Counted from the whole stretch's first letter, positions 4,351 to 60,112 are shown. The stretch: DNA of 63,848 nucleotides, filler included, from Klebsormidium nitens (GCA_000708835.1; 4 parts of 4 records of this genome joined end to end with filler, not necessarily neighbours in it); one strand, 5' to 3'. Notes: generated by a model not told the origin, from the sequence alone. A program made the numbers and translations.

Positions 4351-4574
4351 GCAAGAGGCAAGAACGTAGATCAGACACTTACATTTTTTGAGGAGCTAAA
4401 GGAATGCGGCCCACAGGAGTTCAGACTTTGCTAAGCTGGTCAATCTGGAGATCCGGACGTCGCTGCTGATTGCTTGAAACGATGAGACTCTATCTGTCGC
4501 AAATCCTTGACCAGCAATAAAAGGTCTGCAAAAAGCACTCACCGGGTGTGGGGGTTTCCGTGGGATTTGTCCAG

Positions 4575-4674: not shown

Positions 4675-4870
4675 TAAACCCTAAACCCTAAACCCTAAAC
4701 CCTAAACCCTAAACCCTAAACCCTAAACCCTAAACCCTAAACCCTAAACCCTAAAACCCTAAAACCCTAAAACCCTAAAACCCTAAAACCCTAAAACCCT
4801 AAAACCCTAAAACCCTAAAACCTTTAAACCCTAAAAAACCCTAAAATCCTAAAAACCTAAAACCCTAAAC
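4675..4870. repeat. Telomeric array at a left chromosome end: (CCCTAAA)10, then (CCCTAAAA)9, then degenerate units
   Basis: Counted directly: 7-mers 4679-4748, 8-mers 4749-4820, variants (cctttaaa, ccctaaaaaa, tcctaaaaa) to 4870. C-rich strand at the scaffold start. Confidence 0.97.
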
Positions 4871-31696: not shown

Positions 31697-32359
31697 TGAG
31701 TTGTTTTACCTGTCAGACCAGAATGAGGTGTACATGCTTCCTGGGCTGGGTGCATGGTATGGAAGTTGCCTGGTCGCAGCATCCAAGGCAGCCTCTGCTT
31801 AATCTACGGCATTAATCAACAAGTCACTTCACAATCTCTGTTTGTCGCAGCTCAATCTGTGGCATTTATAATTATGCTATAGGTCTTGTCAGGGTGGTCT
31901 GTTTAATTTCATCAAGCGAAGTCCCTTTGCAAGCTTGATGCTTGCCAGCATCTTTCAAGGATTTTTGCAGCCGCCAGCATGGATGCTCACTTGCCTTGAT
32001 CCAAGAGATTAGTTCACTATGCTGATTGCAATGAAAGGGCAGGAAGAGATTTTTGACATAGCCGTTGAGTCTCTGGGAGATTGGCATACGTCAGAGCACG
32101 TCACTGCTGTTGGTTGTAACCCTGGATATGCAAGGAAGTTCAGCTGTGTTGAGACTTCGTCAGTCGTCCTCAAGCATACCCATAGGGACCCACTGGTGTG
32201 CTCTGAAAGTTTTGACCTCAGTTGCTGCCTGCCAATGGTCTGGCTTGCTCACAGACCATTTTTGGGGGAGTCTGGCTGCCAATTTCATGTGAATACGCAT
32301 CTGCTAACCCCTTTTCTCTGCCCCAGCTGCTGCTCATGCTCTTCCTTCTTTTATGACAG

Positions 32360-35309
32360 GATCCGAGACGAAGCCATCTGCACCACCATCAACCCGAGAG
32401 CAAGTCGCAAGCATACTCAGAACAAAGCTTCCTTCTCCTTCGTCCTATGCCAAGAACTCTGCATCCAACGGCTGGCCAGACCCACGTCACAAGGCTCTGC
32501 TCAAGATGCTGCGCACGCACCGCCCGGCAACACTTGCCGATGAGACGTTTGAGCAGCTGCCAGTTGGGCTTCTCAGTCCCATTTTGGCTCAGGTCGAAGA
32601 GGACTGCGCGTACGCAGATCCACTAGCCGAGGACACCGATTTTGCAGTGATGTTGAGCGAGGAGATGTCCGGGACATTCGCGGACGAGGACAGCAGGAGA
32701 GAAAAGTTTTGCGACATGCTGAGCAAGGAATTTTTTATGCCCCTTAACCGGGCCACAGTCGGGTTAGGTGTGACAGATGGGACGGCGATGCTTCCGGTGG
32801 GGGTTGCCAGTGCGATGGCTGTGAACACTGAGATCAAACTGGAGGTCGGGCAGGGGGGAGGAGATCCGCGGCTTCAGAATGCAACATACGCCGCCCACAA
32901 TGCAAGTCTTCAGTACGGGTCCCTGGGTCGCGTCAGCTACTGTCCAGCGCTGCTGATTGAGCTCGCAGGGCCAAACATGAGTTTGTCAGGCTTTGCTTTG
33001 GGCCAGTACGCTTGCTGCGATCAGCTATCGCAGATGGTGTCGCTCCTCAGGCAGCCAAAGAGCGAGATTGCTATTGGAGCGGCACGTGCCATCTTCGCCA
33101 TTCGGAGAGCCTGGCCGGCCCTGCAGGTAGGTGGCTGTCTCACCTTATTGCGGGCTGGATACTTCTCGATGTTATCAAGTCTTCAGAGATCAATGATAAC
33201 AGTCGGCAATGTCTCTCCTTCGTCTCAGGTTGCCCCTTGGTTACTACACAACGAAGAGCTTGCCTCTGATGATCTGCCTTTGATTTTTTAATCACTGGCT
33301 TCTTTGGGAGGCTTTGATGGAGATGGGCCGGTCTGAAAAGCGATGTGTTATGTCTGTGTATGGGGGCCAAGTGTAGAAACCACTACGTCCCTACGTCTCC
33401 GAATGTCGATCTCAGGGGAGACTTGCTGAGTCAAGTCTGCTTGGTCAAAGACTTCCTGCACAATCGATGTTGCACCCTGGCCAGTAAGGCCGATGCAAAT
33501 GAGGACATATTCTCCGCAACAGTTCTGCAAGTGAAGGAAGAAGCCTATCACCATGGATGAACGCTTCTGGGACTCGGCGCACTGAATTTGTTGTATCTCA
33601 AGCAGCTGTAAGTCTCTAGTCGCATACAATCAGAGTTTTCCATCTTCGACACAGGAGTACTACCAGAAGCTGGCAGAGACTCTGAAGGACTACTGGAGGC
33701 AGTCGGAGACTCCAATGCCCAATCAACAGCTGGAGTTTCCGTACCCAAACTTGTTCAAGCCAGACGGAGGCGACTCAACCCAGTCATTGCGATACCTCAA
33801 ACGTCTAACGACTTACACCTTTGAGGCCGAGAGCATGAGCAAGAAGGTGTTTGTGAAGTACTGCAAGAGGTGAGGGATATCCTTTTTGAGGTCTGGCATC
33901 CTTTCATGGCGTCACAGAGTTGCAGCACATGAATTTTGACAGTGCAGAAAATTGCCGTACAGACACATGCTGGTAATTCTCCGAACTGCTAGTTGTGGGC
34001 GAGTCACAGGTTGCGCAGGCTTCAAACCACGTTGGTGGTTTGAATCTTTGTGGTATGAGGAAGGTGGTATGGCTGTGTCTTACCTGAAATCTTGGGGACG
34101 TTTCGTTGCACTTATACTCGGACTCTTCTGTGAGGACCCTGAGTGACAAGCATGAGTGTAAAGCTTCTTCATCACGCATTGGCAGCGACTCTCTGATCGG
34201 CGGGTTGCCCAGATGCCAGGTAGAGATTGGGGTCATTGTGCCCACGTGCATGCAGATATTCGCGGGAGGCCCATCTCGTGGTTCAGGAGGCGGGGCACGC
34301 GCCCCGCCTGCTATGCGTTCAGTTGCTGCCTGGCCGGTGGGTGATGGTAGTGATGGAGTACCTGGAGACCGCTGTGACGTGGAGCGACTCCATGGTGAAG
34401 CCGATCGAGCAATTAACTGCAGCAGTGAGGGTGATGCACGATGCGGGGTTCGTGCATGGCGATTTGAGGAGCCCCAACGTGCTGGTCCAAGACGAAAAGG
34501 TACGCTCTTTCCCCGTCACTCTTCATCCTGACAAGCTTCAGGAATCGCTTCTAACGCACATGCTGGAAGCCATTGTGCATAAGACGAGCACGATTTGTTG
34601 GCATGTAAGCCGGCTCTTCTAGGAAAGGCAAACGCTTCTCACGAGGAACTGCCTCGCTGCCAGCTTTGTGGCAAGGGCAAGGCAAGGCGTTCATTTGAAA
34701 TGTTGAAGAATCTGTTGGCGAAAAGCCAGGTCGTGGCGCTCCAGTTGCGTGACAGCCTGGCAGGATAATTTCCGCTTTCAACGGCCTTGTTGGGCTGATC
34801 TCGACGTGTTGAGCGTCGGTGCTCCTTAGAGCTTAGAATCTACTGTCTTGACATTACACCGAGAGTACCGCGGTCATGAAGGGGCTATGTTCAGATGACA
34901 CACGCAATTGGCTGAAAGCAGATGTATTGGTTGAATGCAGAGCTCGGTAAACCAGAGTCATAGGCTCCTCTCATGTGTGTCATCAAAGCTGCGAGTGAAT
35001 GTTTATCTGTCATCCCCTTGAAATTGACTTCAGGAGTCTTTGCGCCTCGTGCTTATTGCTACCAACGGCGCTTCCTAAGGATCACCAGGTGCAGGCTCGT
35101 ATGGTTCAGATGTGTTGAATCAAGTCATTTAAGCTTTACAGGTACATCTGGTGGACTTTGAATGGGCTGGGAAGGAGGGGCATGTGAGCTACCCGCTCTT
35201 CATGAATCGTGCAACCGAGATGTGGCCGGAAGGGGCGACTGACGGGCAGTTCATCAGGAAGACGCACGATGCTGAGTGGGTACGGAGACTACGAGCAGGA
35301 GATGGTTAG
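32360..35309 (+). CDS. Crinkler/CR-effector-like protein: PD-(D/E)xK restriction-endonuclease-fold domain fused to an atypical protein kinase; exons 32360-33126, 33655-33869, 34256-34499, 35142-35309; 5' exons unresolved
   Basis: The four exons splice in frame with GT-AG sites. Nuclease part: PSPSSYAK..TDG..NTEIKLEVGQGGGDPRLQ..Y..CPALLIELAGP..SG. Linker: EYYQKL..FPYP. Kinase: VFVKY..YSREAH..APRL..WVMVVMEYL..MHDAGFVHGDLRSPNVLV..LVDFEWAGKEG..YPLFMN..WP..HD. Confidence 0.82.
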
Positions 35310-36219
35310 TTATGCATAGACCCACCGGTTTGTGTCACGAGAGGTTGGAATGAGGGTTATCATCATTGTCGGGAGTTATCATCTGGGGGATGATGTTCGG
35401 TAGTTCTTGGGCCACGTTGCCGCAAGCTGGCTTCATAAGCAAGTTCCCCGTGTCTCGCAACAAATGGTCGCACAGCTGAGCACTATAAGACGGTCTGGCT
35501 GGCAAGTTCGCCTCGGCACCAATGAGGATCGAGGCCTTCCTGCAGTGAAGGACCTTCTTGCAGCGAAGGACCGCGTGTGTGAGAGCATGCCCGAGCAACC
35601 GATCAAGTTCGTTCAAGTTCATGCTGGCTCCCGTGGGAGAATTTGACCCCTCTTGTGGGACTTGCAGAGAGTCGTTTTCTGCTTTGAATTGTGCGGTTCT
35701 GGCACTGCACTCTTTGATTGGCTCCATTACAAGTCCGCCTCTCAGTTCAACTACCAAGCCAATCGCCAACAGGTCGGTCGTTCAAGTTGATGCGAAAGAA
35801 ACGCCGCAAAACGATTAAGGTGTAGGCATCCTTCTCCTTCAAAGCACTTTGCGCACTCTCTCGAGGGATGCAAGATGTACACGGATTGCCATAGTATGTA
35901 CACTTTCACATCCCCAAGCTTTGCGGCATAGAAGCTTGATGTACATGAATGGAGGAATCATGTGCACTTTTCATTTTCGTACCATAATTTAATGTCTGCA
36001 AGTCGGAGATGATGTTGGAAGATCTCCATTTCTCAATCGACCGATGGGTGCGCTCCATACCCGCAGCTTGTCGGGATGGAACCGACTCGAGGGACCACGT
36101 AAAGTGGCTGAAGCAATTCTTCTCGCGCTCAAATGCAAATCGACAGCCGCCATACGGCGCGCTTTTCAGACACATTGTAGCTGCTAGCGCAAAGACCTCA
36201 GAGTTGATAATCTGCACTG

Positions 36220-36615
36220 CTTTGAAAAGCTTTGATATGTAGAATGGTGGTGAAGATTGTCGGGCGACCATACCGGATACTTTCTGGCATGTTGTAGTGG
36301 ATAGCAAGGACGAGTCAATATGCACGGGCTTTGAAGCTAAGTTTGATGTATAGACTAGATGGTACAGTTCGTCAGGCGACCATTCCTCACGGTTTTGAAG
36401 CTTTTACGTATAACATAATGGTGCAGATTGTCGGTCGACCGTGCCGCGCGCCTTCTTGGATTAAAGAGGCCTGACAATATGCACCGCTTTGAATCTTTCA
36501 TGTGTAGCACGATGGTGGAGATTGATGCATTGTATTGCAATTGTGAGGACTCGACAATTTGAAAGGTTTTTAAGCTTGCATCAATAACATGATGGTGCAG
36601 ATTGTCAGCCGACCA
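36220..36615. repeat. About five degenerate copies of a TTGAA..GCTT..ATGGTGCAGATTGTC..CGACC-like unit
   Basis: Related cores near 36241, 36355, 36413, 36506 and 36587 (e.g. acataatggtgcagattgtcggtcgacc and acatgatggtgcagattgtcagccgacc). Confidence 0.55.
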
Positions 36616-37093
36616 CGGCCCACGCCGCACGCTTACGGAATCATGGGAGACCACTCAAGATGTTTTGAGATGCCCTAATCTTCATGGTGTATCCCCAAAG
36701 GCTGCTGCTGGTGGGGCCAACGCTGCAGACAGTGTCCGTCCCGCACGAGCCGCGTCAAATACCGCATGACGATGGCTGTCCCGCCCAATGAACCCGAGAT
36801 GCGTGCTCAAAAGTTTTTGCCTTGAAGATTGCGGTGGAATGCGGATCATGCTCGTTCGTCGCATCTTCAACGGAAAGCAACTTTTGCCCTGATTAGAGGG
36901 CGCACATCGCAGGTCGCCGGCCTTGAAAGCTGACGCGCGCCGCACGACACAATAGGCTCCCGTCCAATAGGCGATTCATTGCAAGGAGCTAGATTTTCTG
37001 CTTCATGGAAATTCATACTGTTCTCAAGTGCGTGAAGCGGCACTATGAAGGCCACCGTATCACATGCACCAGCTTTTGCACTTGGAAGACGTG

Positions 37094-39026
37094 CTACACA
37101 GCATCCACAGAGACGCCGAATATCCGCCCCACGCGAGGCTCCATGCCATCAGTGTAAATTGACGGATCCATAAGTTCAAGGCGCTGTATGGTTTTAGGGT
37201 CGAACGGGGCAACCTCACCGATGCCGCCCGGCCGCAGGTTCAGGAGGCTGTCCACCTGAACCACAATTTCAGGGAAGTCCTTGCGGGACTGGAGGGCCGT
37301 CAGGAGGTTGTGCTTGTCGTTGGGATCCTGAAACCACTGGTTCTCATAATCCGCTTTCAGGTCGAGGTAGTTTGCGGTGCGGGGAAAGCGGCGTTTGAGG
37401 TCCTCGGCCTGCGCCACCCGGTATGTGATCATGATCGTCGTGATGGGGCGGTCGCTTGCTTGCCAAAGCTCATCCCCAACCGCCCCGCAGAAGACCGTCT
37501 TGCCGGTGTTCACGCCCGACCGGATGCCGAGCAAGGGGAACTTCCCCGCAATCCACCTGCAAGTGTCGACAGAAGGATTGTTGTGTCAACCCGCCCTGGC
37601 ACGTGTTGAAGTGCCTGTCACTCTTTGGCGAAAAAAAGAAGGCTTGCGAGTGCTCAAAGTGCCGCCGAGTGTCGAATTCAGGGGAGACTTAAGGCCGACA
37701 CTCTAAACGGAGGTGGGTTATGCCTTGACCTTAATCTCGTACGGGCTGAACTTCACCGCAAGCAGCTCGGAAGGGTGAGTAAGCGCTTAAAGTACTCTTG
37801 TACGGCCTGAAATCAGTACCATGTGGCCCTGCCCTAGTCTGAAGTGGAAACGTGACATACAAACATTGGTCAGAATGCCTTGGAAGAGGACCCCGTGCCT
37901 TCAGTGCGCGTCCAAGAAGAAACAAACAGCCCCTTGATGGCCCAAAATCTGGACCTGTGACGGAAGGACATTCGTCAGATTGTGCACGACTTGCGGCAGA
38001 GGGCGGCAGAGGGCCAAGAAGCGCCCAAGCTAACTAGCACCTGCAGGTACCGCGCGCGACCTGAATTATAAAGACGTGGCAAAAGAAAAAGCTCCTCGCA
38101 GTAGGTGGGCGTCCAGATGGCCGAACCTAGCCAACACTCACAAAAAGTCCCCGCCGCTGACCTGAAAAATAGACACGTGGCAGCGAAAAAAGCACCTAGC
38201 AGTTGGTGGGCGCCCAAAAGCACCCAATCCAGCCAGCGCTCGCGAAACATTCCCACGCTGATCTCTCAATGTCGACACGTGGCAGAAGAATATCTGTAGA
38301 CCTGTCAAAAGCGGCAAAAGACTCTGATGGTACATTTTAAGCGTACATACAGTCGGTGGTCGCGAACACCCTACGCTGTCCAAAAAGTAGATTTGTGGCC
38401 GAGACAAAAGCTTGTCACGCAAAAGCTTGACACGCAAAACATTGAGGGCTCCCCGCATCACAATGGGCACGTATTTCCTCTTCCCGCAGTAACACTCACT
38501 CGTTGGCAACCGTGTTCAGCTTCATCAGATCGTCCGGCTTCCTCAGCCCCGCCGCTACTTCGGCCACGAGCTCAGGGGTCGACGCGCCAGGGACCCGCTT
38601 GAGGTGCTCCATGTCTACCTTGACCGCGCCAGTCTCATACGAGATGTTATCCTCGAACAGGTCCCCCAGGCAGTACGCCCTGCTGACACAGGGGACGTCC
38701 GAGTCCCCACCCTCGGTATTTCGGCTGAAACACAGAGCATAGATCTTGCCGTTTGGATTGAGATGGCAGATCAGTCTCTGACGGTTCTCGTGGATCCGAC
38801 CCGTGTAGCACGGCTCTGTGCGATCGCTGTAGTTGTAGCGATCAGGGCCCTCCTCGTAGGCGCTGGGGTGCAAGCGCTCCCGGAGCAGCGCCAGCATGCG
38901 CGCCTTGACGAACTGGTCATTCGTCGAGCTGCGCTCAGTGCCCCTTTCAGACATCACTCGAGGGTTTCTAAACCTTTCGTGGAGTCTTTCGGGCACTTCA
39001 AACGGCAGCTTGACCTCTTCACGGGC
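37094..39026 (-). pseudogene. Decayed, intron-containing virus-type replication gene: primase-associated Zn finger exon (39026-38500) plus origin-binding-protein-like (UL9/OBP) SF2 helicase exon (from 37556)
   Basis: CYTGRIHENRQRLICHLNPNGKIYALCFS..C resembles the C-H-C-C Zn finger following AEP/PrimPol primases. GIRSGVNTGKT..ITYRVAQAEDL..F..NYLD..IVVQVDSLLNL..PFD resembles OBP Walker A and adjacent motifs, but the expected DE (Walker B) is lost after FD. Splice sites are canonical (CTACAG| and |GTGAGT; TTGCAG|); in-frame stops lie between the exons. Confidence 0.6.
38058..38291. repeat. ~2.3 degenerate tandem copies of a 101-bp unit inside an intron of the primase/helicase remnant
   Basis: Units start at 38058, 38159 and 38260 (gacctgaa..(c)acgtggca..gtgggcg..cgct). 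Confidence 0.75.
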
Positions 39027-39560
39027 CTGTAGCACAGCACAAGGGCAGCTTGTTAGGAGCACGTTCGTGCCAGGTCATCTACATCGCCTTGTCAAAATGA
39101 GAGGAGGAAGCCAGGAAGGAGGCCAAGGTGGTTCGTTTTTGGCGACCACCTGAACTGGAAAAACTTGCGCTGCCTTTCAACCAAGGATTGTGTGAGAGCA
39201 ACAGATTGCAACAAAAGCCGAGCGTCTTCGAACGTAGCGATCCCATCAAGCTTCAACGCTGAAGAGGCGATCAGAAACGAGGAGTGCGCCACAAGCAGGG
39301 TCCTTTCTTCCGCAAAGATGAAGGCCGCATTTCAAGCAATCACTGCTCAGGCTCGCAGCAAAACCAGCAGGATGTACCAAGAAACGATGTATTACTTTCT
39401 AAAGAATCTAACGGGCCTTTCCTGGTACATCTTGCGGGCATGGCCGGGCAGCACATCAAGCGCCAAATCCGTTTCGTACCAGGAAGGATGAGTAACTCTT
39501 CAAAAATCGAAGCCGTTTTCTGGTACAGCCTTCATATGACCGACCAGGCAGGTGTGGGGG

Positions 39561-40138
39561 NNNNNNNNNNNNNNNNNNNNNNNNNNNNNNNNNNNNNNNN
39601 NNNNNNNNNNNNNNNNNNNNNNNNNNNNNNNNNNNNNNNNNNNNNNNNNNNNNNNNNNNNNNNNNNNNNNNNNNNNNNNNNNNNNNNNNNNNNNNNNNNN
39701 NNNNNNNNNNNNNNNNNNNNNNNNNNNNNNNNNNNNNNNNNNNNNNNNNNNNNNNNNNNNNNNNNNNNNNNNNNNNNNNNNNNNNNNNNNNNNNNNNNNN
39801 NNNNNNNNNNNNNNNNNNNNNNNNNNNNNNNNNNNNNNNNNNNNNNNNNNNNNNNNNNNNNNNNNNNNNNNNNNNNNNNNNNNNNNNNNNNNNNNNNNNN
39901 NNNNNNNNNNNNNNNNNNNNNNNNNNNNNNNNNNNNNNNNNNNNNNNNNNNNNNNNNNNNNNNNNNNNNNNNNNNNNNNNNNNNNNNNNNNNNNNNNNNN
40001 NNNNNNNNNNNNNNNNNNNNNNNNNNNNNNNNNNNNNNNNNNNNNNNNNNNNNNNNNNNNNNNNNNNNNNNNNNNNNNNNNNNNNNNNNNNNNNNNNNNN
40101 NNNNNNNNNNNNNNNNNNNNNNNNNNNNNNNNNNNNNN
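39561..40138. other. Assembly gap (N run) inside scaffold C
   Basis: 578 Ns. Confidence 0.99.
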
Positions 40139-40642
40139 TTTCCTTCTCTAACGAGTAACACGTCGCTTCTTGGTTATAGGTCGCTTTGTGGAGATAGACC
40201 CATGTTGCTGGATGCGCCTGACGGGCTGTGGTGCCTCAAAACGACCCATAATCCAGCAATTTTCGGAAGAGTGCGACACTGGATGGGCCGGCCAAACCTA
40301 CACCTAGAAATGCACCACCAAACGAACGCTAGCAAAGAGCAAACAGCACGGCCAAGTCTGGAATTCACTCAAAATGGCAGAATATTGGCAGATGTACACG
40401 TTCTCAATACTCTACAAATAAGACGCGATCATAGCTCGGCAGCTGACACTCATATCGGTCTGGAACGCCAAGTTCCTGAAATTTTGTTACTTGACGTACA
40501 CTTCACTGTCCGATTGATGCAGAACTTCAACAGCGAATCATCCAATAAGCGCAGCAGGCAGCCCATGAGCAGCGAGGTCAGCTGCAGCCCCGACCTAATC
40601 CTGTAAGGTTCACCACGATCCTAGCAAAGGACAGCTGCTCAC

Positions 40643-41230
40643 ACAGTGGCCGGTGGCGCTTCCTCCCGGGCCCGCCTCCTCTCCATCTCCGTCCGCATGG
40701 GCGCCAGCGCATCGTCCGGAGTCTTCGAGTCTGCCGCGTGCCGAGCTGCCGCTTCCTCCATTTGCAACTGCCGGTACAGATCCCGTGTTTCAGCGTCCGG
40801 CAGCGCCGAGTCGTCGATGCCCCGGTCATCCTCGGATGTGGGCTCTCCGTCGGACTCGGTCTCGTCTGATGTCTCTTCGATGTCGAAAGAGGCACCCTCT
40901 TGATCAGACGTCGCGGCAGCTTCCTGCAAGGAACGTCAACGGATCAATTCATGGACGCTGCTCAATTGCGGTCGGTAAAAGCTGGCAATAGGGATCTGCT
41001 TGCAGAGAATGGTGAGCCCAACCTGGTGCTTAACACGGCAATGAAGGCAAAAAAAATGCCTGGCGCCGGGTTCGGCCTGACCATGCCTCACTGCCTCTCC
41101 TCAAACGCGCACGCAGCACACGATTGCTCACCGCTTCGTCCGGGCTCCCGGTCCGTATCCTAGTACCGCTCGGCGCCAGAGAGCTTTCCCTGCTCGGGGC
41201 CGTCCTCTTCCGACGCGCGACCTCCTGCAT
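40643..41230 (-). CDS. 5' exons of a spliced gene with a basic then highly acidic N-terminus; possibly the N-terminus of the primase/helicase remnant
   Basis: ATG at 41230 (MQEVARRKRTAP..DEA|GTGAGC) joins in phase 0 to exon 40923-40643 (EAAATSDQEGASFDIEETSDETESDGE..|GTGAGC). Downstream frames are broken. Confidence 0.45.
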
Positions 41231-41313
41231 CCAAGCATCAGGACACTCCCATTTCAATGCAGGGCTCTCCAGAACTTAGGGACACACCTCGACGCTCAAA
41301 GGTCATCATAATC

Positions 41314-41853
41314 ATGGCCTGTAAAACCGAGTTCACGGGCCGCTTCGCTCTTTCTCGCCCTCTGACCGCCGAGGATAGCGCGATCTTGAAGGCTGTGCAC
41401 GACTACCGCCCTCAGGATGGCTTGAAGCTACCCTCTGCGGCTCCGGGTCAAGAGCGCCCGGTCAAGATCGTGCGGAAGGGAGTCAACCCCTACTACGGTG
41501 GGGAGGGATGGCACATCTTCAAAGAATTTCCCTCATTCGACTGCCGTTGGACCGTCTCACGCGACAGGCGCGCACTTGTCTGGGACGAGAAGGGTCCCTT
41601 CTACAACTACGTCAGCTGGCTCGAGTACCTCATCTCCCATTTCTTTGCGGTATGGGGAGTACAGCTGAGCGGGACCGTCACATTGAAGGGTAGCCGTTTG
41701 GGCGACACGGGGTCAATCACGGTGAACGGCTACCAGATCTTCGTCAAGATGACCCCAATCGTGGCAGTGCGCATCGCTGAGGGATCATACGACTACCCGA
41801 ACGAGGCATTTTTCGACTACACGAAGGAGGAGAGACTATTATACTCACCGTAG
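41314..41853 (+). CDS. Intronless phage/bacterial-type hypothetical protein (copy 1)
   Basis: MACKTEFTGRFALSRPLT..FDCRWTVS..LVWDEKGPFYNYVSWLEYLISHFFAVWGVQLSGTVTLKG..DTGSITV. This matches a family I recognise from phages and bacteria (MGYxTxFxG..CQW..WDGxEKFYxYxEWLxYLIxHF..GYxLNGxVxWxGE..DxGxIxV). Function unknown. Confidence 0.7.
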   Translation: MACKTEFTGRFALSRPLTAEDSAILKAVHDYRPQDGLKLPSAAPGQERPVKIVRKGVNPYYGGEGWHIFKEFPSFDCRWTVSRDRRALVWDEKGPFYNYVSWLEYLISHFFAVWGVQLSGTVTLKGSRLGDTGSITVNGYQIFVKMTPIVAVRIAEGSYDYPNEAFFDYTKEERLLYSP

Positions 41854-42037
41854 GCGCAACCTCAGTAGCAACGGAGCGAGGCTGGCTGGCAGAATGCGGG
41901 TCGCTGCTGGAAGGGCCCGTCTCCTGCGAGACAACGAGGGGATGAAGGGTTTAGGGACAAAGGGCGCGCGGACGATCCGATTTCGACCATGGACACAGGC
42001 TTAGGGAAACGCTTTGGCCCTCGAAGGGCATCGGATC

Positions 42038-42502
42038 ATGGGCTAGGACACCAAGTTTACCGGCCGCTTTGCCTTTTCCCGCCCCTTGACTGCCAAAGAG
42101 AGCGCGATCTTGGCAGCAGTGCACGAACACCGCCACGAGGACGACCTGGAGCTACCTTACGCGGCTGACGAGAATCGCCCAGTCAAGATCGAGCGAGAGG
42201 TGATCAAGCCCTTGTATGTGGGCGAGGGCTTCGACTACTTCACGGAAAAGTTCCCCTCTTTCTACTGCCAATGGACCCTGTCACCCAACAGGCGCGCTCT
42301 TGTCTGGGACAAAGGGGAAAAGTTCTACAATCACGTGAGCTGGCTCGAATACCTCATCTCTCACTTTTTCACCGTATGGGGAGTGCAGCTGAGCGGGACC
42401 GTCAATTGGAAGGGAGCCAATAGGGACGACAGAGGTTCGATCACGGTCGAGGGTGATAGGATTATTGTCAAAATGCCTCTAGCCCAGAAGGACTCACCGT
42501 AG
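42038..42502 (+). pseudogene. Tandem paralogue (copy 2) of the phage-type gene with a nonsense codon at position 3
   Basis: ATG GGC TAG GAC ACC AAG TTT ACC GGC (MG*DTKFTG) is in frame with ..FYCQWTLS..WDKGEKFYNHVSWLEYLISHFFTVWGVQLSGTVNWKG..DDRGSITV. Confidence 0.7.
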
Positions 42503-42638
42503 GTGTCCGCTCTGTAGCAGCGGGACGGGGATTGCTAGTAGGATGCGGGCCGCTGGAGGAGGGGCCCGTTTCCTGCACGACAGGGGGAAGGCAAGGGGCT
42601 TAGGGGCAGATGACACGTAGAGTAGGCAACTTCAAACG

Positions 42639-43005
42639 ATGGAATGGTACTTCAATTGGGGTGCGATCCAGACCCCGGAGCAGATCAAGAGGGTCTTTGC
42701 TCTCGGCGCCAAGACCGATCCAGAGACTTTGAGGGCAGCAGCGAGCTTCCAGGATGCAGCCGCAGGTGCGATCACCCGCCTATACAAGAGGGGCACATGC
42801 AACGACCCCAGGGATCTCTCCTGGCCGTGGCTGTTTCGATGGTTCATGCAAGCGGGGGGGGTTCGAGGCCTGGTCGAGCGACGATGTTATTGAATTCTTC
42901 GACGAGTTTATGAGCAGTGAAGTAGGCAGATTTGAGGAGTTCAAAGGCAAGATTTCAAAGCGCATCTGTCGCGCCGCACTTGAGGACTGTCGATGTGGGC
43001 ACTGA
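42639..43005 (+). pseudogene. Intronless orphan ORF apparently frameshifted in a G run (~42853-42860)
   Basis: MEWYFNWGAIQTPEQIKRVF..WLFRWFMQAGG continues in another frame as GGFEAWSSDDVIEFFDEFMSSEVGRFEEFKGK..*. Confidence 0.4.
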
Positions 43006-43847
43006 CCTCTCTACTGACGCTTGGCGCGGTCGGCGGGTCCTGCCACTGAGGTCGAGCAGGTTGCACTGCAGAACGGTCCATCACCTCTGCCACCCAGTTT
43101 GGGTTCGATTGCTGAATAAGAAAGGAATGCACGAGTCAACACCCAGTCCATCGACTCTTCCCATATGCCAGCTCTCAATACGCATGGGTGCAAACGAATC
43201 AACGTGCTCAATGACAGCATGATCTCACACATGTCGGACAGCGACAGCGACTGGAACTCACGCTTGCTCGCCACGCATCAAATGGCTCGATGCTGACTGG
43301 CTTTGACCTGACGCTCTCCTGAACCTCCTGCATGACATGTATTGCCCGATTATTCGTCATTCGTGAATCACCCGGTCTATATCGACGCTCTGTGGATGCC
43401 GGTGAGAAGGGGCATGGTGATTCTGGGAAGTGGCACTTGTGGCCTGGCGGTACTTCGTGCAACCCTGAGATGGAGCCTGTATGAGGCAGAAAGGAACTTT
43501 GCTGACTAAACACTCACGTCCGCGGTCGGAATGGGAATCAGGGGCCGTCCGGACGAGCTGCTCGAGGCTCGGGATCGTGTGTGGGCCACCCCGGGTTGCT
43601 CTCCACGCCCCCGATCATCAGCTGTGTCGCTGCATTGCACCAAAGGAATCCCTCAGGCAATCGTGCTCAGAATGGCATGCCAAATGTTCAAGCCAGACTC
43701 GCGCATTCAGAGTCTCATCTGTAAAGCCGGCTGAAGCATATTCCTGCCAACAAGTGCACGGGATGTGCAACCGTACCTATTAGCGCCCTGCTCTTTGGTG
43801 CTGAGGAGTAAAAGACCTTCTCCGACCCGCCCCCAAAGGCTGCAGAT

Positions 43848-43947: not shown

Positions 43948-45922
43948 GGGGGCCGAGCCTGCGGGACAGCCAGCGCAATCTGCTGGACAGCATGGCCTCG
44001 CCGCAGCGCGGCCTGGCCGCCAGCCACGACCCGTCCACCTGGCAGGTCAGTGCCACCCGCGCCGCGCCAGCATGCTGCGACCTGCTGCCTGTGCTGCCTG
44101 CGCTGCCTGCGTCTCGTGCCCCCAGCCCCAGCCCGCGCGAGGCTGAGAAGGGCGTCTGCTGTGCGGTGTGCAGATGAGCAGCCTGGCGGAGGTGCAGGAC
44201 GCGGACGGCGCCGCAGCGGGCGGCCTCGACGACGATGACGGCGGCGGCGGCGCACAGCAGCAGCAGCAGGATGACGAGCAGGACGACGGTGAGGCGCAGG
44301 CGGCCGCACGGTGCGGCTGCTGCAACGGCGCGTGTGTCTGGGCGAGGAGAGACGGGTGGGGCTTGCCACGCTTGCTGCTGCGCTCTCCTGCTGAGGCGGC
44401 CGTGCGGTGTGGTGGTGTGCAGATCCGCTGCCGGCGATCCTGAACCTCAAGATCGCGGGCGAGGCCGTGCTGGGCGGCAAGCTGACCGCGTGCGGCCACT
44501 CCGTGTACGGCAGCTCGCTCTGCTACTTCCAGGTGAGCCCGCCCAGCGCCGCAAGCGGCGCTCGGCCGCAGCCCCGCGCTGAGACTGCGCTGATGCTCAC
44601 GTGAGCGGGGCCGCGTCCTGTGCAGCGGCTGACGCATCGTGTGACGTGGCATGTGCAGTGGGTGCGGCACAAGCAGGACGGCGCGGCGTACCTCATCGAA
44701 GGTACGGCCGACGATGCATTGCTCCGAAAAAACGGATTCAGATCCGCTCGTATGTTCCGTTTCTATTGTTATACCCGACAATGGATCGTCAGCTGGTTCG
44801 AATTTTGACCTACTCTCGTGCCACCTTCTGAGGCATCAACAAGATTGTTCTGTCGTTCGTGTGTGGCGGAGGCTCTCTGCCCCCAGCAGGGAGAGTATGG
44901 CATAGGACTGTCCTGCCAATGCCTTTGAAGAGAGCACCTGGAGAGCGGCAGCGTCACATCTGGTTGACGCAGAAGAGACCCTGGCAAAAGGGGCTCAATG
45001 CCCCGCTGCGTGCGCAGGTGCGAAGCAGCCCGAATACCTGGTGAGCGCGGACGACGCGCGCTGCCAGATCACCGTCGAGTGCCTCCCCGTCGACGACCGC
45101 GGGCGCAAGGTGCGCCCCGCGCTCCCCCGCCGCTCCGCCCCCCTCCTCGCGCTGTGCTGCACGTGCGGCCCTGTGCGCCACACGGTTTGCCCGCCTCTGT
45201 TTGCCTGCGTGCGCTCTCGTGTGCGTGCCTGACGCGCCGTGCGTGCTGCTGGCGGTGTGCAGGGCGAGGTGGTCAACGCCGCGGCCAACAACGGCGAGCC
45301 CATTCCCATTGGTGAGTCCGCCCCGGCCCCTCTGCCCCGTCTGCCCGTCAGCCCCTGCTGTTCCTTCTCGCGGGTGTGCTGTGGGTGCCGCGCGCTGCGT
45401 GGGCGTGTGGGCCTGATTGCGCTGTGCGTGCGTGGCTGCAGACGAGGCGACGTCCAGTTTGCTGACGGGGTACGCGGCGAGCGGCAAGGCGCGCTTCACG
45501 GTGCTGGACGCGCACAACAACGTGGAACACGAGCTGTGCATCGAGCGGCGCAGCCTGGCCATCAAGCGCGGCAGCCACGGCGTGATCAAGGAGCCGTACA
45601 GCGGCGAGGTGCAGGCGGAGATCGCGGTGAACGAGGCCACCGTGCTGCTCATCCACATCAGCGGCGGGCGGCGCATGGACCTCGACTGCATCGACAACCG
45701 CGCCCGCGACCTCGCCGTGCTCACGCTGCGCCACTTTGTCGACGCGCACCTCCAGGTACGGCGCTGCGCCGCGCTCACTCCCGGTGCATCACCAGCACAA
45801 GTGAAAGCGGGCGGGGGATGGCGCTCCCACATGCGTGCGCGCTGAGGCTAACGCGGCGGTGTTGTGCTGTGCAGTACCAGGACGAGAAGACTCGACGGCG
45901 AGGCTTCTTCTCGCGCCGATGA
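43948..45922 (+). CDS. SCAB: SCAB (stomatal closure-related actin-binding)-family protein, 3' part (Ig-like + PH domains); 5' end missing
   Basis: Spliced exons: DPLPAILNLKIAGEAVLGGKLTACGHSVYGSSLCYFQWVRHKQDGAAYLIEGAKQPEYLVSADD..VECLPVDDRGRKGEVV..ANN, RDLAVLTLRHF and the basic end RRRGFFSRR*, matching the SCAB1 C-terminal layout. Confidence 0.85.
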
Positions 45923-47279
45923 GGGGCGCGCGCCGCCTCTGCCGTTGACAGGCAGGCTCGTGTTGCTCTTGCGGATGCCGCTGTCCTGTACCCTTGTGAA
46001 TATCCCGTAGCAGACCCACCGTGCGGGTGGTTCGAGTACTCCGTCCGACAGCCACGTCTACAGAAGTATGTAAACCAAGTTTGGCAAGTGGAGAGTCCTT
46101 GCTACTGGAGCACGCGTCTGTCCCTAACCGGGGATCTCAAAGCGAATAGTTGCAAGGACGGGCCGCTCATGCGAGCGGTGAGTCTCCCGTTACCATACAA
46201 AGTCTGAGCTTAAATTTGTATTGCGCCTGAACTGATTTCTTCCGGCCGTGCACGATGAACTAGATGTGGTGCGTGCATGCTTTGTTGCTAATGAAATCGA
46301 TGCCTTTCGCGAGCTAAAGGGAGGGTGAGGTCGGAATATATATGAAGGCGTTTTACATGCAGACGAGCTTCCTTTACACTGGCATGTCTGCCGAATGTAG
46401 GATTGTGCACAATTTACCCAGCATCCTCTAAAAGGCGAGCTTTGTTGCATCCGCATAAATTTGCGCTTCGAATCGAAAACATTGAAATTGAAGGTTCTCG
46501 AGGCTCAAGTTTGCTTATTCAACGTCCAATTTCATGCGCTTGTTGGACGGGCCTGGGCCACAGCGCAGGAGACTCGCCAGGCTGCACTAACCCCGAGGTT
46601 GGCGTCTGATCACATTGGGCATTCAAACGGAGTCCAGCCGGGCTAGCTTTAGCTCGGCCAAATGACTAGCTACTAAATGGACGGTTGCATAAGCACGCGG
46701 AGCGTACGTACATGCAATCAAGATTGGTACGTGGTTGCACCCCAGTACGTGATAAGCACGTGCATGCATGGTCAATGGAAGCACGCGCTAGAGCTTGCTA
46801 TCAAGTCAGGCCGGACATGTGAGCTAGCTCATGTTCAAGCCTGTTGCAGCGATCATGCATACAGTTCGGCCATGGGAGTATGCGCATGCTACACCGAGTG
46901 TTGTACCTTTTTGCTGTACGTAGTGCTTCAACCAGATACAATATGGACAAACACGTCATGCAATTAGTACGTGATTCAAGCCGCACTTGCCCGCAAGGTG
47001 TAAGATATAGGCTAACTCTTGCGTACAATCTGCGCATATATATGTCAAGAATATATGTACTTGACGTCATGGCAGCTGTTGAGAAGAGGTTGAACACCAT
47101 GCAAGACTCAGTCCATTCTCAGGCTGCATTTGGAGTCGCATATGCAAGCTCCACATTTCAACGATGACGCCAGCCAGCCCGATCGGATGTGGTTTGACAC
47201 TTGCCAGGACGAAGGGATTTTGCTGGACATAGTGGGGGTCAAATGTCTAGCAATTGAGAGGTTTTGACTCGGACCATCG

Positions 47280-50200
47280 TCACAACGATGCTCGAGCATT
47301 CTCCGCAACTTGTCGCCTCCTCCTCCCTTTCGTGTCCCATCCTTCTTTGTGAGACGGCCCGTCCTCTGTCGCGGCGTCATTGTCTTGCTCCATCTCATCC
47401 TCGAGGTCGCTGTCATCATCCCCACGTTTCCGCCTCTTCCTTCGCTTGGCTGGCCCCATGCTCTTCGCCCGTGGCCGCTTTGTCCCGGGCAAGCCTGAGG
47501 CCGGCGCTGCGCCGTCTGCCGGGGTGCCCTCCCCGTTGCCCGCTTCCCCCCGTGCTGCGGATGCTCGCTTCTTCGACTTGGGGACGGCGAAGGCTCCGTA
47601 ATCGATGGCATCTTCCTTCATGAGCTTTTTGAAAACCTGCAAACCGGTAAGGGGATTCACGAAGTGCAGTTAGGCAACGGCCAACTCGTAAGCGCCCAAA
47701 GTGGATATGCATACGCTTCATTACAGCATGGACAATTCCCCGCGCAGTACATACGGGGATGCCATGATTTCTTGACTTTATTCAAGAAGCAATGCTTCTC
47801 ATACAGAAATAGAAGGTTGTAAGTCGTCGCCGAGGTTGTCACATGATTCGCAGGTTCCGAGAATTAAACGCTCGACTGTCACGGATGCACTCCTGTCCTT
47901 CCAGGCTTCCAGCTTGTGCCTGTGCCTGCTCGCGCGCACCTTGTATCGCTGCCACAAGTCCCTGCTCGTCGCCACGGGCTGCAGCGGGAGCAGCGCCGCG
48001 TCGAAGGGCCCCACGCCGTCGCGCGGCGCGGCCGGCTCGGCTGTGCGCGCGGGGTCGGTGGGCGAGAAGGCGGCGCAGCGGTCGTCGGGCAGCGCGTAGG
48101 CCATCTTGAGGTACCGCTTCAGCAGCAGCAGCAGCGAGAGGGCCATCGCGCCGCCCGACTCGGCCTGCACCCAAGACGGCAAAGGAAGGGTGACCGGCCG
48201 CGCCCCCACGGGTCGAGACGCGGAGAGCGGAGAGGTATCGACAACAGCGCCAGGAACGGACTCCAGTGGCGGAGCCGCACAGGCAGTGGGTGGGGCCGTC
48301 CAGATACGCAGTCAAAGGCCACGCGGATGCACGTGCTCCGCTCGCAGAAACAGGACACAAGTAACCATCCAAGCGACACGTCGCTCCCTTTGCACCTCCA
48401 AGGTTGTGCCACGTGCTCGTTGCCAATACGGCGGACGATTTGGCCCGCAGCCAGGAGTCCGCACAGCGGGGCTGCTGCAGCCGCGGCACCGTGTGTCCCC
48501 CAGCCGCCCGCTGGGGGGTGCGTGGCTCACCTTGACTGCGTCCACGTCGTCGCGCGGCAGGCCCGCCAGGTCGTCGGCCGCGGGGTGCTGGGCGGGGCCC
48601 GGCGGGGCGGGGTCCACGTCGGAGTAGACGCTGAGGGCCGCCTCCTCCGCCTCGCGCTCCGCGGCCGCCACGCTCGCGCGTACGGCAGCAGCCACCGGGC
48701 CGGCGCCTGCGGGGGAGACGGCCGCAGCGACTGTCATGAGGAAGTTGCAACGCACAGGGACAATAGAAGTCGTCAAACGAACAGGTGCGGCGCTTCATGC
48801 GACGGGTGAGCGAAACAGCAGCTCAACGTTGATTTTCCTGTACGGATGAGGATGCTCGCCACGCCGGCCCCTGCCGGGTGTCCTCGCACCCAGCGAGACG
48901 GCACCTTCGGAGGAGGAAGGGGAGGACGGAGGATCGGCCGCGCATGCCACGGCCCTCTCGAGGCGCCTTGGCCTGCCAAGAACTAGACATGGCGCCGCCT
49001 GGCGTTGTTCCTCACCCAGCACCGCCGCCTTGAGCTGTGCCAGTGCCGCCCCGGCGCGCAGCTGGAGGGTGCGGTTGATGCTGTAGATGAGGTAGAGCGG
49101 CTCGTCCAGGGTGGCGAACGGGAGGCCCGCCAACGCCGCGGCGCAGAAGCTGCACCACAGGCAGCACCAGCTCAAGATGCTGCAGAGCAACCCCAGGGGA
49201 GGAGAAGAGTGCATTGCACGCTTCAATGCATCGCCCCGTTTGCCGTTGCCCACACTTCGGCGATACCTCGAGACGAATGAGCCTTCACGCGTCACGAGTG
49301 AGCGCGACCCGTCCCTGGAGCCGGGAATGGCAACCCGTGTGCCCAGCAGTAGACACCGGCGACGCATCTCAACCCGCAAGTCAGACGGCCCCTTCACGAG
49401 CTCTTAAATGTTCAGCGTCCGCTATTGCGGCATCTTCTCCGGAGAAAAGACGCCCGCCGCCCCCGAGACCCCCCCGAGACCCCCGGCACGCCACGTGGTG
49501 GCCTGCCCCAGGACCCCGTGTCCAGTTCTGGACAGGAGCGGCCCGCGCCTGGGCCGCTGTCCGCAGACCAGCTCAGGACGCGCGGAGTCCCCGCTCCTCC
49601 GTGACAGGAGCAGCCGACAGGAGCCTGCCGCGGGCAGTGGGCAGCGCGCGAGTGGGCGAGATGGAGACATGTGCGGGCACTCACTGCAGGAACGGCAGGT
49701 CGTCGGCGGCGGTGTCGAACTTGTGCACGATGGAGTGCAGCACCTTGTTGCGCGCGCCCTTGGTGGCCCGGCACAGCGCGTACACCCCGCCCAGGCCCGC
49801 CCCGGGAACAGGCCCGCCGCGGCCGTCGCGCGCCAGCCCGGCGTGCATGCGGAACGCGGCCTGCAGCCCGTCGCCCAGCCGGCTCTCCACAAAGTCCGGG
49901 TGCCTGCACCACCACACAACAACGTCGCACCACAGCCGGACAGCGCCGCACCGCGAGCGTGCATGCAAGAGGCTGTTCCAAGCTACGCACTCCCGCCGAA
50001 GTAGCCAAGCTCACGCTGTCGTCTTGTCGCCCACACGAGCGGAGACAGTCAGAGGGGCCACGCACACGGCCATGAGCTGCAGGTTGCACAAACGGGGCGA
50101 GCGCTCGCGGCGCGGGCTCACTTTTGGTACATGGCCGCCAGCAGCTGGTGCGCGAGCTTGGCGGTGGCGGCGTGCGTGTCCATGCCCAGCGCGACCAAGG

Positions 50201-59200: not shown

Positions 59201-60112
59201 CAGGGGCTCATCCTCCTGCGCAGAGCTTGCCTGCGCGGGCAAGCAAGGGCAGCAGTGAGGGGCAGCAGGAGCGCCAGGCGGGAGCTGCAGGGGGCCAGAG
59301 GGCATCTCTAGCGGCCTGCCGCACACAAGGGCCCTCTCCTGGCGCCCTGCGGGCAGCGGGCGCTGTGTGTGCTCACCCAGGGGTCAGGGCGCAGGCGGGG
59401 GCCACTCTGGGGCTCGGCTGCTCGCACAGTCCCCTGAGGCAGGAGGGGCGGCCCATCAGCGGGCGGAAGCGGCCGCACCACTGCAACAGGGACGCTCGCG
59501 CGGTCCAAGCGGCCAGGGGCTGCACCAAGGGGCACTGGTCAGACGGCTGACGGGTAGCGCTTCCAAGAGCACTAGACGCACGCTGGGGCTGCGATCTGAG
59601 GACCAAGCGAACAACTCGGCTTGAAGCCTCTTACGATGTTGAGTGAAGTTTCAACTTACTTTTTGGCATGCATTGGAAGATCCCAGGGTTGCTGCTCAAC
59701 AACGCCACTCGCCGTGTTGATGGTTGAGGAGACGGAAGAAAAGGCAGGGAGGCCTTCAGGGACCTGCACGCAAGGATGGGACGGCATGTCACGCCCAGTG
59801 CCACTCTGGTGCCTGCACTCATGCACACGGCCCATCCACTTGTTCATCCCTGCAATTGGCGAGCAGGCTGGCGGCGCTGGCTCACAGGTAACTAACGTCC
59901 GCCTCCCTCAGCAGGTGGGCTATTCCATGCTCCACTGCGGAGCTGCTCGGAGAAGGGCCACTGGGGTGGCCCTCCGGGGACAGGGACGCATGGCAGGCCC
60001 CCCCAAAGTTGGCAGGAAGAGAGGGCACGGGAAAGAACTGAAAGACCTCTGGATGCGCTAAGTTGGTCAGGCGGGCCGCAGGAAGTCGGAACGCCCCTTG
60101 CTGACCCGCCAT
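47280..60112 (-). CDS. SCC2: Cohesin loader SCC2 / Nipped-B-like, plant type with PHD finger (>20 exons)
   Basis: N-terminus [32 protein letters not shown]; [26 protein letters not shown]; HEAT segments [50 protein letters not shown]; Nipped-[20 protein letters not shown] and [13 protein letters not shown]; final [15 protein letters not shown]. Confidence 0.93.
53875..53960. repeat. Perfect 40-bp tandem duplication in an SCC2 intron
   Basis: tgaaatcataagctcaggttgacactgggttgcccatcca x2 plus tgaaat. Confidence 0.9.

What the first reader, a model, noticed from the sequence alone, without database searches (positions are those of the whole stretch)
31697..43847. A 12-kb scaffold made only of virus/mobile-type genes: candidate domesticating endogenous viral or cargo element
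Seen: no housekeeping gene; lower GC than the neighbouring scaffolds' genes; a nuclease-kinase gene; a primase-Zn/OBP-helicase remnant; two phage-type paralogues; an orphan. The genes show graded decay and intronisation: spliced and intact, spliced and broken, intronless and intact, intronless with a nonsense codon or frameshift. Known: AEP-primase/OBP helicases are replication genes of large DNA viruses, giant-virus insertions occur in green algal and early land plant genomes, and CR-type nuclease-kinases are associated with mobile DNA. Inference: this may be the remnant of one self-replicating element that carries an effector/toxin as cargo.
Basis: partly seen in the sequence, partly recalled or inferred. 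Interest (0 to 1): 0.82.

Follow-up and report, generated by a model that had tools for sequence, protein, structure and literature searches.

The report
Viral replicase gene hiding phage genes
In a Klebsormidium alga, a repeated, spliced and transcribed gene for a virus-type primase-helicase carries three small intronless genes (two phage-like) backwards inside its introns, and the broken copy here is fused to an unrelated algal nuclease-kinase gene; the family is likely the replication gene of an undescribed virus-derived repeat element, not one cargo-carrying element.

Summary
RNA contigs from three studies show ONE minus-strand gene spliced across 43.8-37.2 kb. It belongs to a Klebsormidium nitens family (at least 12 annotated models) of AEP-primase/Zn/UL9-helicase proteins. 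The 'orphan' is its N-terminal exons. The two phage-type ORFs (dN/dS 0.22) and the frameshifted ORF lie antisense inside its introns, stops at the donor sites. A 2A-like GGVESNPG motif sits near the N-terminus. This copy has a frameshift and is cut just before Walker B at 37198, where one telomere unit (TTTTAGGG) joins it to an intact, heavily spliced REase-kinase gene. That gene's named relatives are trebouxiophyte algal genes and its first exon is off-scaffold. So the scaffold is a chimera; no capsid, integrase or element end is seen. Contig depth against diverged paralogues suggests about 4-6 near-identical copies (no single-copy control). Nearest outside relatives are unnamed metagenomic proteins, apart from catalogued giant-virus homologues. 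Best reading: replicase of a long-resident virus-derived repeat element (0.45). New variant of a known kind; interest 0.58.

The parts
31697..32248 (.). High-copy repeat upstream of the first kinase exon on the scaffold; it lies in the kinase's 5' intron or flank
   Evidence: DNA contig depth 470 (bin mean) against 208 next to it; a second path leaves at 32248
32360..35309 (+). CR-type REase + kinase gene, exons 32360-33126, 33655-33869, 34256-34499, 35142-35309; 464 codons in frame; first exon off-scaffold; 3' UTR to about 36310-36430
   Evidence: GT..AG joints at depth 2980-4985 in 3 of 3 RNA runs; translation and 42-51% identity to algal proteins; RNA loose end at 32357 is not in the window
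36205..36626 (.). Degenerate repeats spaced about 170 bp, at the end of the kinase 3' UTR
   Evidence: a similar stretch exists elsewhere in the genome (loose end at 36591)
37190..37200 (+). Junction between kinase segment and helicase remnant (37197|37198), with an 11-nt in-phase match to the Klebsormidium telomere repeat TTTTAGGG
   Evidence: Bridged by DNA contig 37158-37441; match statistics; repeat type from PMC3622300
37198..37556 (-). UL9-type SF2 helicase exon with Walker A, cut just before the Walker B DE motif
   Evidence: 82-98% identity to 7 of 9 K. nitens hits; RNA continues into intact paralogues at 37198
38500..39028 (-). Primase C-terminal Zn-binding exon, spliced to the helicase exon
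   Evidence: Joint 37553/38497 in 3 of 3 RNA runs; 63-100% identity to family members; 59 relatives
39561..40138 (-). Assembly gap (578 N) where the AEP catalytic exons should lie; inferred, not seen
   Evidence: P0003 residues 127-416 have no match in the window; the DNA loose end at 39560 carries a donor plus the exon end that RNA joins to 39028; the gap is shorter than the about 870 nt needed
40641..41224 (-). The 'orphan': exons 41132-41224 and 40641-40923 of the primase-helicase N-terminal low-complexity region
41314..41853 (+). Nested ORF1, intact, 179 aa, phage-type family, inside minus-strand intron 41225-41848; its stop lies 3-5 nt into the next exon
41849..41923 (-). 75-nt phase-0 exon between ORF1 and ORF2; paralogue of exon 42498-42572
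42038..42502 (+). Nested ORF2, same family, stop at codon 3, inside intron 41924-42497
42639..43005 (+). Nested ORF3, about 121 codons, one-base frameshift in a G run near 42854-42861, inside intron 42573-43006; no family found
43007..43840 (-). Upstream exons 43777-43840, 43518-43629 (2A-like LMIGGVESNPGW; frameshift near 43568), 43262-43327, 43007-43111; the gene continues beyond the scaffold end
   Evidence: CT..AC joints in 3 of 3 RNA runs

Best explanation
The scaffold is a fusion, in the middle of a helicase exon, of an intact algal nuclease-kinase gene and a broken copy of a repeated, spliced, transcribed virus-type primase-helicase gene that holds three antisense genes in its introns; the family is likely the replication gene of a virus-derived repeat element long resident in Klebsormidium. 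Shown: gene structure, nesting, truncation, transcription of family members, purifying selection between the two nested paralogues. Inferred mechanism: (1) an intronless viral gene block had the primase-helicase facing away from a row of small ORFs; (2) in the host nucleus a promoter further upstream read through the ORFs backwards, and splicing removed each ORF as an intron while keeping the spacers as in-frame exons, which would explain the long low-complexity N-terminus that outside relatives lack; (3) the 2A-like peptide would release the replicase from an upstream peptide; (4) intact copies would supply origin unwinding and priming, with host polymerase, to copy family members; (5) here a DNA break, likely repaired with one telomerase-made repeat, joined a truncated copy to the kinase locus, and the fused unit was then likely duplicated several times.
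For: Eight CT..AC joints in 3 of 3 RNA runs from 3 studies. At least 12 K. nitens models on 12 scaffolds in two deep subfamilies, one clade with support 99 (9 rows tested). AEP, Zn, Walker A/B and motif VI are kept in several paralogues. The profile matches UL9 (E 2e-33) and PrimPol (E 5e-13) structures and the plasmid initiator CyRepA1 below its cut-off. AEP motif I lies at residue 60-102 in 15 of 15 full-length metagenomic relatives against 218-881 in K. nitens models. The five exons from 43262 to 41132 are all multiples of 3 and all three nested stops touch a donor. ORF1/ORF2 dN/dS is 0.22, bootstrap 0.12-0.35. Nested ORFs recur with the primase. A 2A-like motif is in 7 of 12 family models and 0 of 91 other stored proteins. 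Window-identical contigs have depth 28-31 against 5-7 for diverged paralogues in X1, and 118-208 against 16-40 in X4.
Against: No element end, target-site duplication, integrase, capsid or polymerase gene is in the scaffold, and the genome could not be searched, so mobility is not shown. No catalogued virus carries a close relative (GTDB), so a viral donor is inferred from domain architecture only; the nearest Atlas cluster for a relative is 61% eukaryotic. The nested ORF and the primase-helicase co-occur in 0 of 126 viral or metagenomic loci, so the ancestral block is hypothetical, and the ORFs may instead have entered existing introns. Steady transcription, many introns and long residence fit a domesticated host family equally well. 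The copy number rests on contig depth without a single-copy control, and the kinase side is 1.8x the helicase side in X4 but 1.1x in X1. Most RNA depth over exon 43518-43629 (551 of 775 in X5) matches the frameshifted version, which I cannot explain. The 2A-like motif lacks the Asp whose Ala substitution abolished F2A activity.
Confidence: 0.45

Rival explanations
1. A domesticated host gene family: an old viral primase-helicase now serves the alga (for example repriming, repair or subtelomere upkeep) and multiplies by ordinary segmental or subtelomeric duplication; the nested ORFs are passengers.
For: Spliced and transcribed in every RNA run laid (5 of 5). Two subfamilies at about 33% identity keep catalytic motifs. 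A telomere unit lies at the junction. No ends or capsid genes were seen.
Against: Many copies are partial, truncated or frameshifted. Copies look mosaic: P0002 is 100% identical over 76 residues of the Zn exon but 76% in the acidic exon. Six of 12 models are the first gene of their scaffold and 9 of 12 scaffolds are under 60 kb, as for repeats. A 2A-like motif and phage ORFs are typical of selfish elements (general knowledge).
Confidence: 0.22
2. Fragments of a larger endogenous virus (Yaraviridae/NDDV-like, 35-45 kb, or a giant endogenous viral element) whose capsid and packaging genes lie on other scaffolds.
For: Some Yaraviridae encode an intact AEP + UL9-like SF2 helicase like mimivirus R8 and ASFV pF1055L (PMC11253617 passages). 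Endogenous mriyaviruses occur in chlorophytes (bioRxiv 2026.06.19.733378 passages). K. flaccidum holds Phycodnaviridae-like core genes (PMC5294986). The relatives that were looked up lie on contigs of at most 49 kb.
Against: No other viral core gene in 6.6 kb around the gene. About ten introns and a host-like splice pattern. The family is separate from all 38 IMG/VR homologues in the tree. The nested ORF's viral homologues sit among tailed-phage genes in the 7 loci checked.
Confidence: 0.2
3. One reading: one self-replicating element that carries the nuclease-kinase as toxin or effector cargo.
For: The junction-spanning contig has depth 118 in X4, like the rest of the window-identical helicase side and above diverged paralogues, so kinase and remnant seem amplified together. 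REase+kinase is a common CR-protein architecture of transposon ancestry (PMC5289972 passages).
Against: The join destroys the helicase. The kinase 5' exon is off-scaffold behind a high-copy repeat. Its named hits are Myrmecia, Coccomyxa and Trebouxia genes on Mb-size contigs. Intact transcribed paralogues run on through Walker B with no kinase.
Confidence: 0.1

Closest known systems
AEP + UL9-like SF2 primase-helicases (ASFV pF1055L, mimivirus R8, Yaraviridae SF2_hel; PMC11253617)
   Same: Same domain order AEP - Zn - UL9-type helicase, about 1050-aa core, catalytic motifs kept in paralogues
   Different: Host-nuclear, multi-copy and intron-rich; a long low-complexity N-terminal extension with a 2A-like motif; no linked capsid, ATPase or HUH gene seen; forms its own clade with unnamed metagenomic proteins
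Giant endogenous viral elements and endogenous NDDV/mriyaviruses of green algae
   Same: Virus-type replication gene in an algal genome; K. nitens/flaccidum is known to hold viral genes
   Different: One gene expanded and expressed rather than a block of viral core genes; viral-origin genes of K. nitens are reported as methylation-enriched, and methylation was not tested here
Mirusvirus gene-carrying spliceosomal introns (shintrons, MING-1; PMC12768974)
   Same: Small intronless genes inside spliceosomal introns of a virus-type gene, at conserved places
   Different: Here they lie in a host genome, antisense, in the N-terminal extension; the product is ferredoxin-like with phage homologues and has no nuclease match
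Yeast Y' subtelomeric helicase elements (recalled, no call)
   Same: Repeated helicase gene, near-identical copies, telomere repeat at a boundary
   Different: A primase is fused to the helicase; chromosome-end location is not shown; only one telomere unit, at a break inside the gene
CR (Crinkler-RHS) REase+kinase proteins (PMC5289972)
   Same: PD-(D/E)xK-type motif (TDG...EIKLE...QN) followed by a kinase (HGDLRSPN, DFEW)
   Different: Free-living alga; header domain off-scaffold; nearest named hits are trebouxiophyte chromosomal genes; no sign of being element cargo
2A/StopGo peptides
   Same: Leu-rich helix plus the non-canonical GxExNPGP core in paralogue P0007
   Different: Gly, Ala or Cys in place of Asp; W or M in place of the last Pro in several copies; sits in a DNA replication gene rather than an RNA virus or retroelement; activity untested

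Membership tests
AEP + UL9-like primase-helicase | AEP catalytic motifs (DxD/E, SxH, motif III) | tested here: met
   Motif I in 7, motif III in 9 of 11 K. nitens models checked; not visible in the window copy, where these exons fall in the N gap
AEP + UL9-like primase-helicase | Cys/His Zn-binding region after the AEP | tested here: met
   Exon 38500-39028; invariant C/H columns in alignment A2
AEP + UL9-like primase-helicase | Complete SF2 helicase (Walker A, DE, motif VI) in this copy | tested here: not met
   Window copy is cut before DE at 37198; complete in paralogues (PF02399)
Giant endogenous viral element | Cluster of nucleocytovirus core genes (MCP, A32, polB, D5, VLTF3) | tested here: inconclusive
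   None among the 17 frames scanned in the scaffold; flanks and genome not available
Mriyavirus / Yaraviridae provirus | MCP, packaging ATPase, HUH endonuclease, VLTF2/3 in a 35-45-kb unit | not testable with these tools
   The scaffold ends inside both genes; context of nearest relatives not retrieved
Polinton / PLV / DNA transposon | Terminal inverted repeats, target-site duplication, integrase or transposase | tested here: inconclusive
   No long inverted repeat (12 pairs, at most 31 nt) and no integrase hit, but neither end of the unit lies in the scaffold
Mobile repeat element | Several related copies per genome | tested here: met
   12 annotated models on 12 scaffolds; depth excess over diverged paralogues
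Mobile repeat element | Insertion polymorphism or filled/empty sites | not testable with these tools
   No genome held; JGI contigs with homologues were not returned
Shintron / MING-1 intron | Intron-encoded homing endonuclease or MING-1 protein | tested here: inconclusive
   No nuclease family hit; ferredoxin-like model, best PDB Z 4.3; MING-1 itself was not compared
CR (Crinkler-RHS) protein | REase domain coupled to a kinase | tested here: met
   Kinase by Pfam (E 2e-4, below cut-off); REase motif read by eye from the alignment, no profile hit
CR (Crinkler-RHS) protein | N-terminal header domain | not testable with these tools
   First exon lies off the scaffold
2A/StopGo peptide | Core (D/G)xExNPGP with upstream Leu helix | tested here: inconclusive
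   Full non-canonical core in P0007; NPGP with A or C at -7 in P0004 and P0008; NPGW or NPGM in four others and the window; Trp at that place kept over 70% activity in a cited in vitro study
2A/StopGo peptide | Measured peptide-bond skipping | not testable with these tools
   Needs a reporter assay
Y'-like subtelomeric element | Location at chromosome ends next to telomere tracts | not testable with these tools
   Only one telomere unit at the junction

The most novel reading that the evidence does not exclude
Klebsormidium hosts a new class of capsid-less, self-replicating eukaryotic DNA element whose only enzyme is a virus-type primase-UL9 helicase made as a 2A polyprotein from a host-style spliced transcript. 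It keeps its accessory phage-derived genes by hiding them backwards in its introns, copies itself and truncated derivatives near chromosome ends, and can drag host genes such as a CR nuclease-kinase along.
Probability: 0.2. Interest if true: 0.82.

Novelty: new variant of a known kind. Interest (0 to 1): 0.58.

Why it matters
If the family is an active element, it is a eukaryotic replicon built on a primase-helicase without polymerase, transposase or capsid, in the model alga for plant terrestrialisation. It also shows a testable route by which a compact viral gene block adapts to nuclear expression: neighbouring ORFs become antisense intronic genes and spacers become exons. A working 2A peptide in a DNA replication gene of the green lineage would widen the known range of StopGo, which a 2026 preprint describes as mainly an RNA-virus and retroelement trait. 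If the family is domesticated, it is an unstudied expressed primase-helicase family in a land-plant relative.

Tried and rejected
No genome was held, so co-occurrence across scaffolds, ends and flanks could not be read. Pfam and PHROGs on single exons missed the helicase and Zn exons. Viral-contig scans with P0003, P0013, P0082, P0019 and ORF3, and a GTDB scan with P0013, found no relative; these pattern scans reach close relatives only. Alignment A5 was too loose to scan with. The one metagenome scan returned 1 unrelated locus of 399 pattern matches and not the Klebsormidium-like JGI contigs. INPHARED phages gave no match to ORF2. The PDB fold search of ORF2 gave no Z of 5 or more; 1 of at least 500 BFVD matches passed E 0.001 (Tupanvirus, TM 0.62). 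ORF3 has no family in Pfam, PHROGs or NCBIfam and stays untested by language-model search. Five look-ups of earlier findings gave nothing. No listed run is on record as RNA; the spliced joints show which are. Contigs cannot show strand or level, so expression of the nested ORFs is open: the ORF1 intron is covered at depth 24-78 by a diverged paralogue against about 500-700 for flanking joints. A clean two-copy reading of the kinase segment was dropped when X1 did not show it. The short likeness of 43398-43473 to the last kinase exon is taken as chance. An IQ-TREE run timed out; the tree is FastTree only, midpoint-rooted, with composition bias and with metagenomic rows chosen by similarity to the window. 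Zhang et al. 2016 was not held; I used a review of it. Supplements of the papers read were not opened and may list these proteins.


Full report
Setting. The window is a string of scaffolds joined by N44-TTAATTAATTAA-N44 linkers; the finding is one 12,151-base scaffold with a 578-N gap. No genome was held. The helicase exon found 9 proteins among 371 candidates, all annotated in Klebsormidium nitens, two at 97-98% identity. Twenty of 24 listed runs, from 7 studies, hold 61-98% of the sampled words of 31697-39560. The scaffold is therefore K. nitens or a very near strain. The neighbouring scaffolds may not be: they resemble each other in tetranucleotide usage (r 0.54-0.74) more than the focal scaffold (r 0.26-0.37), their starch-synthase exons have GC3 0.96-0.99 against 0.67-0.82 here, and one begins with a TTTAGGG-type telomere whereas Klebsormidium telomerase makes TTTTAGGG (PMC3622300, passages). 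I did not identify them. The GC contrast is not used as evidence.

One gene, not five. Contigs of three RNA runs from three studies show eight CT..AC joints: 43629/43777, 43326/43517, 43111/43262, 42571/43006, 41922/42497, 41223/41848, 40922/41131 and 37553/38497. tblastn of family proteins places their N-terminal residues on exactly these exons. One minus-strand gene thus runs from beyond 43840 to 37198. The 'orphan' is its acidic exon pair. The AEP catalytic part (P0003 residues 127-416) has no match and should lie in the gap: the DNA loose end at 39560 carries a donor and the exon end that RNA joins to 39028. The gap is shorter than the 870 nt needed, so it is undersized or this copy has a deletion. 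The family has at least 12 K. nitens models on 12 scaffolds. Several keep AEP motifs, the Zn region and the helicase motifs, hit PF02399, and as a profile match UL9 and PrimPol structures. This copy is a pseudogene: frameshift near 43568 and a cut just before Walker B. RNA at 37198 runs on into intact paralogues in all five RNA runs laid, and crosses the junction only at depth 4.6 in one.

Nested genes. ORF1 (41314-41853), ORF2 (42038-42502, stop at codon 3) and ORF3 (42639-43005, frameshift) fill three successive introns on the opposite strand, and each stop codon touches the donor site. ORF1 and ORF2 arose by duplication of an intron-plus-exon unit and diverged under purifying selection on the plus-strand frame (dN/dS 0.22, 146 codons, bootstrap 0.12-0.35). 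Their family is phage-type: phrog_38666, Atlas clusters dominated by Uroviricota, 94 of 103 IMG/VR pattern matches, and tailed-phage neighbours in the 7 loci checked. The model is ferredoxin-like (pLDDT 72); the function is not indicated, and I take them as accessory passengers. They travel with the primase-helicase in Klebsormidium: the model P0002 contains 40 residues 97.5% identical to the antisense of ORF2, and 3 of 7 JGI homologues lie on contigs of the same length as contigs with primase fragments (38,059, 36,472, 77,436). That is inference from lengths, since the DNA was not returned. In viruses the two never met: 0 of 81 ORF loci held the primase-helicase and 0 of 45 helicase loci held the ORF or the kinase. 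Outside relatives begin 60-102 residues before AEP motif I (15 of 15), K. nitens models 218-881, and the five exons around the nested ORFs are multiples of three. This fits spacers turned into exons, but insertion of ORFs into existing introns is not excluded.

2A-like motif. A Leu-rich stretch ending (V/I)E(S/P)NPG(P/W/M) occurs in 7 of 12 family models, in both subfamilies, in the window, and in 0 of 91 other stored proteins. A non-canonical GxExNPGP core is recognised among functional 2A peptides (bioRxiv 2026.06.17.732966, passages), and Trp in place of the last Pro kept activity in vitro, while the Asp-to-Ala change abolished F2A (bioRxiv 2026.09.24.754024, passages). Activity is untested.

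The kinase and the junction. Four exons give 464 codons in frame with a REase motif and a kinase. Eight of 3,916 candidates were hits; the four with organism names are Myrmecia, Coccomyxa (two) and Trebouxia genes on Mb-size contigs. REase+kinase is a common CR-protein architecture (PMC5289972, passages). The first exon is off-scaffold. The join to the helicase is bridged by a DNA contig (37158-37441; possibly the source library) and reached by an RNA contig of another study with 30 letters beyond it. At the join lies an 11-nt in-phase match to (TTTTAGGG)n, the only match of 10 nt or more to that repeat in the window outside the telomere tract; chance within 10 nt of a given point is about 3e-4. 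This was noticed after the fact, three letters come from the helicase, and an 11-nt match to the 7-mer repeat sits in an intron at 41946. Telomerase-assisted break repair (recalled from short interstitial telomeric sequences) is my reading, not shown.

Copy number. Window-identical contigs have depth 28-31 in X1 and 118-208 in X4; contigs of diverged paralogues with the same GC have 5-7 and 16-40. X1 assembles only 77 Mb against 103 Mb for X4 and 104 Mb published, as expected if single-copy depth in X1 is low. This suggests about 4-6 near-identical copies including the junction. No single-copy control was laid, and the two runs disagree on the kinase side.

Origin. Nine K. nitens proteins form one clade (99) inside a clade with 22 unnamed metagenomic proteins (100), apart from 38 IMG/VR homologues (FastTree; caveats under Tried and rejected; P0001, P0009, P0098 and weak or fragmentary rows left out). 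The architecture is that of ASFV pF1055L, mimivirus R8 and Yaraviridae SF2_hel (PMC11253617, passages). The context of the nearest relatives could not be fetched. The nearest Atlas clusters for one of them are a mostly fungal cluster and a nucleocytovirus cluster.

Literature. Ten full-text searches returned no description of this family or layout; most subscription papers are not covered. I saw passages of PMC5294986, PMC11253617, PMC12344493, PMC12768974, PMC9498494, PMC3622300, PMC12338488, PMC5289972, PMC4052687 and three bioRxiv preprints, and only the abstract and outline of PMC12957317; no supplements.

Verdict. What is there is a chimera, and its right half reveals an expressed, repeated virus-type primase-helicase family with antisense phage genes in its introns and a 2A-like motif. 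Best explanation: replicase of a long-resident virus-derived repeat element (0.45); domesticated family 0.22; fragment of a larger provirus 0.20; cargo element 0.10. New variant of a known kind; interest 0.58.

Noticed in passing
window 4675-4870: Chromosome end of the neighbouring scaffold: about eleven CCCTAAA units, then CCCTAAAA units and degenerate ones inward; housekeeping genes follow within 1-2 kb.
   Followed up: partly
window 4675-31596 and 43948-63848: These scaffolds differ from the focal one in tetranucleotide usage and GC3 (0.96-0.99) and look Chlorella-like in style; the window may join scaffolds of different organisms.
   Followed up: partly
window 3515-4378 (-): ORF with SWIM-like CxC...CxH and further Cys/His motifs, suggesting a transposon-derived gene (label from recall).
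   Followed up: no
window 32360-35309: The kinase's named relatives are all Trebouxiophyceae (42-51% identity), terrestrial algae that share habitats with Klebsormidium; lateral transfer is possible but no tree was built.
   Followed up: no
window 43518-43629: Most RNA depth over this exon matches the frameshifted version (551 of 775 in X5), which stops 17 codons after the 2A-like motif. Unexplained.
   Followed up: partly
window 38058-38285: About 100-bp direct repeat (73% identity) inside the intron between the Zn and helicase exons.
   Followed up: no
P0101, P0031, P0007 (K. nitens models): P0101 joins an ORF2-type sequence to a DnaJ C-terminal part (perhaps a gene-model error); P0031 has a ubiquitin-like domain before the primase; P0007 has a Cys-rich stretch before the 2A-like motif.
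   Followed up: no
L002, L016, L021; L001, L002: One 1.15-Mb IMG/VR contig holds three UL9-type primase-helicases; in L001 and L002 the gene lies next to a type I methylase-specificity fusion.
   Followed up: no
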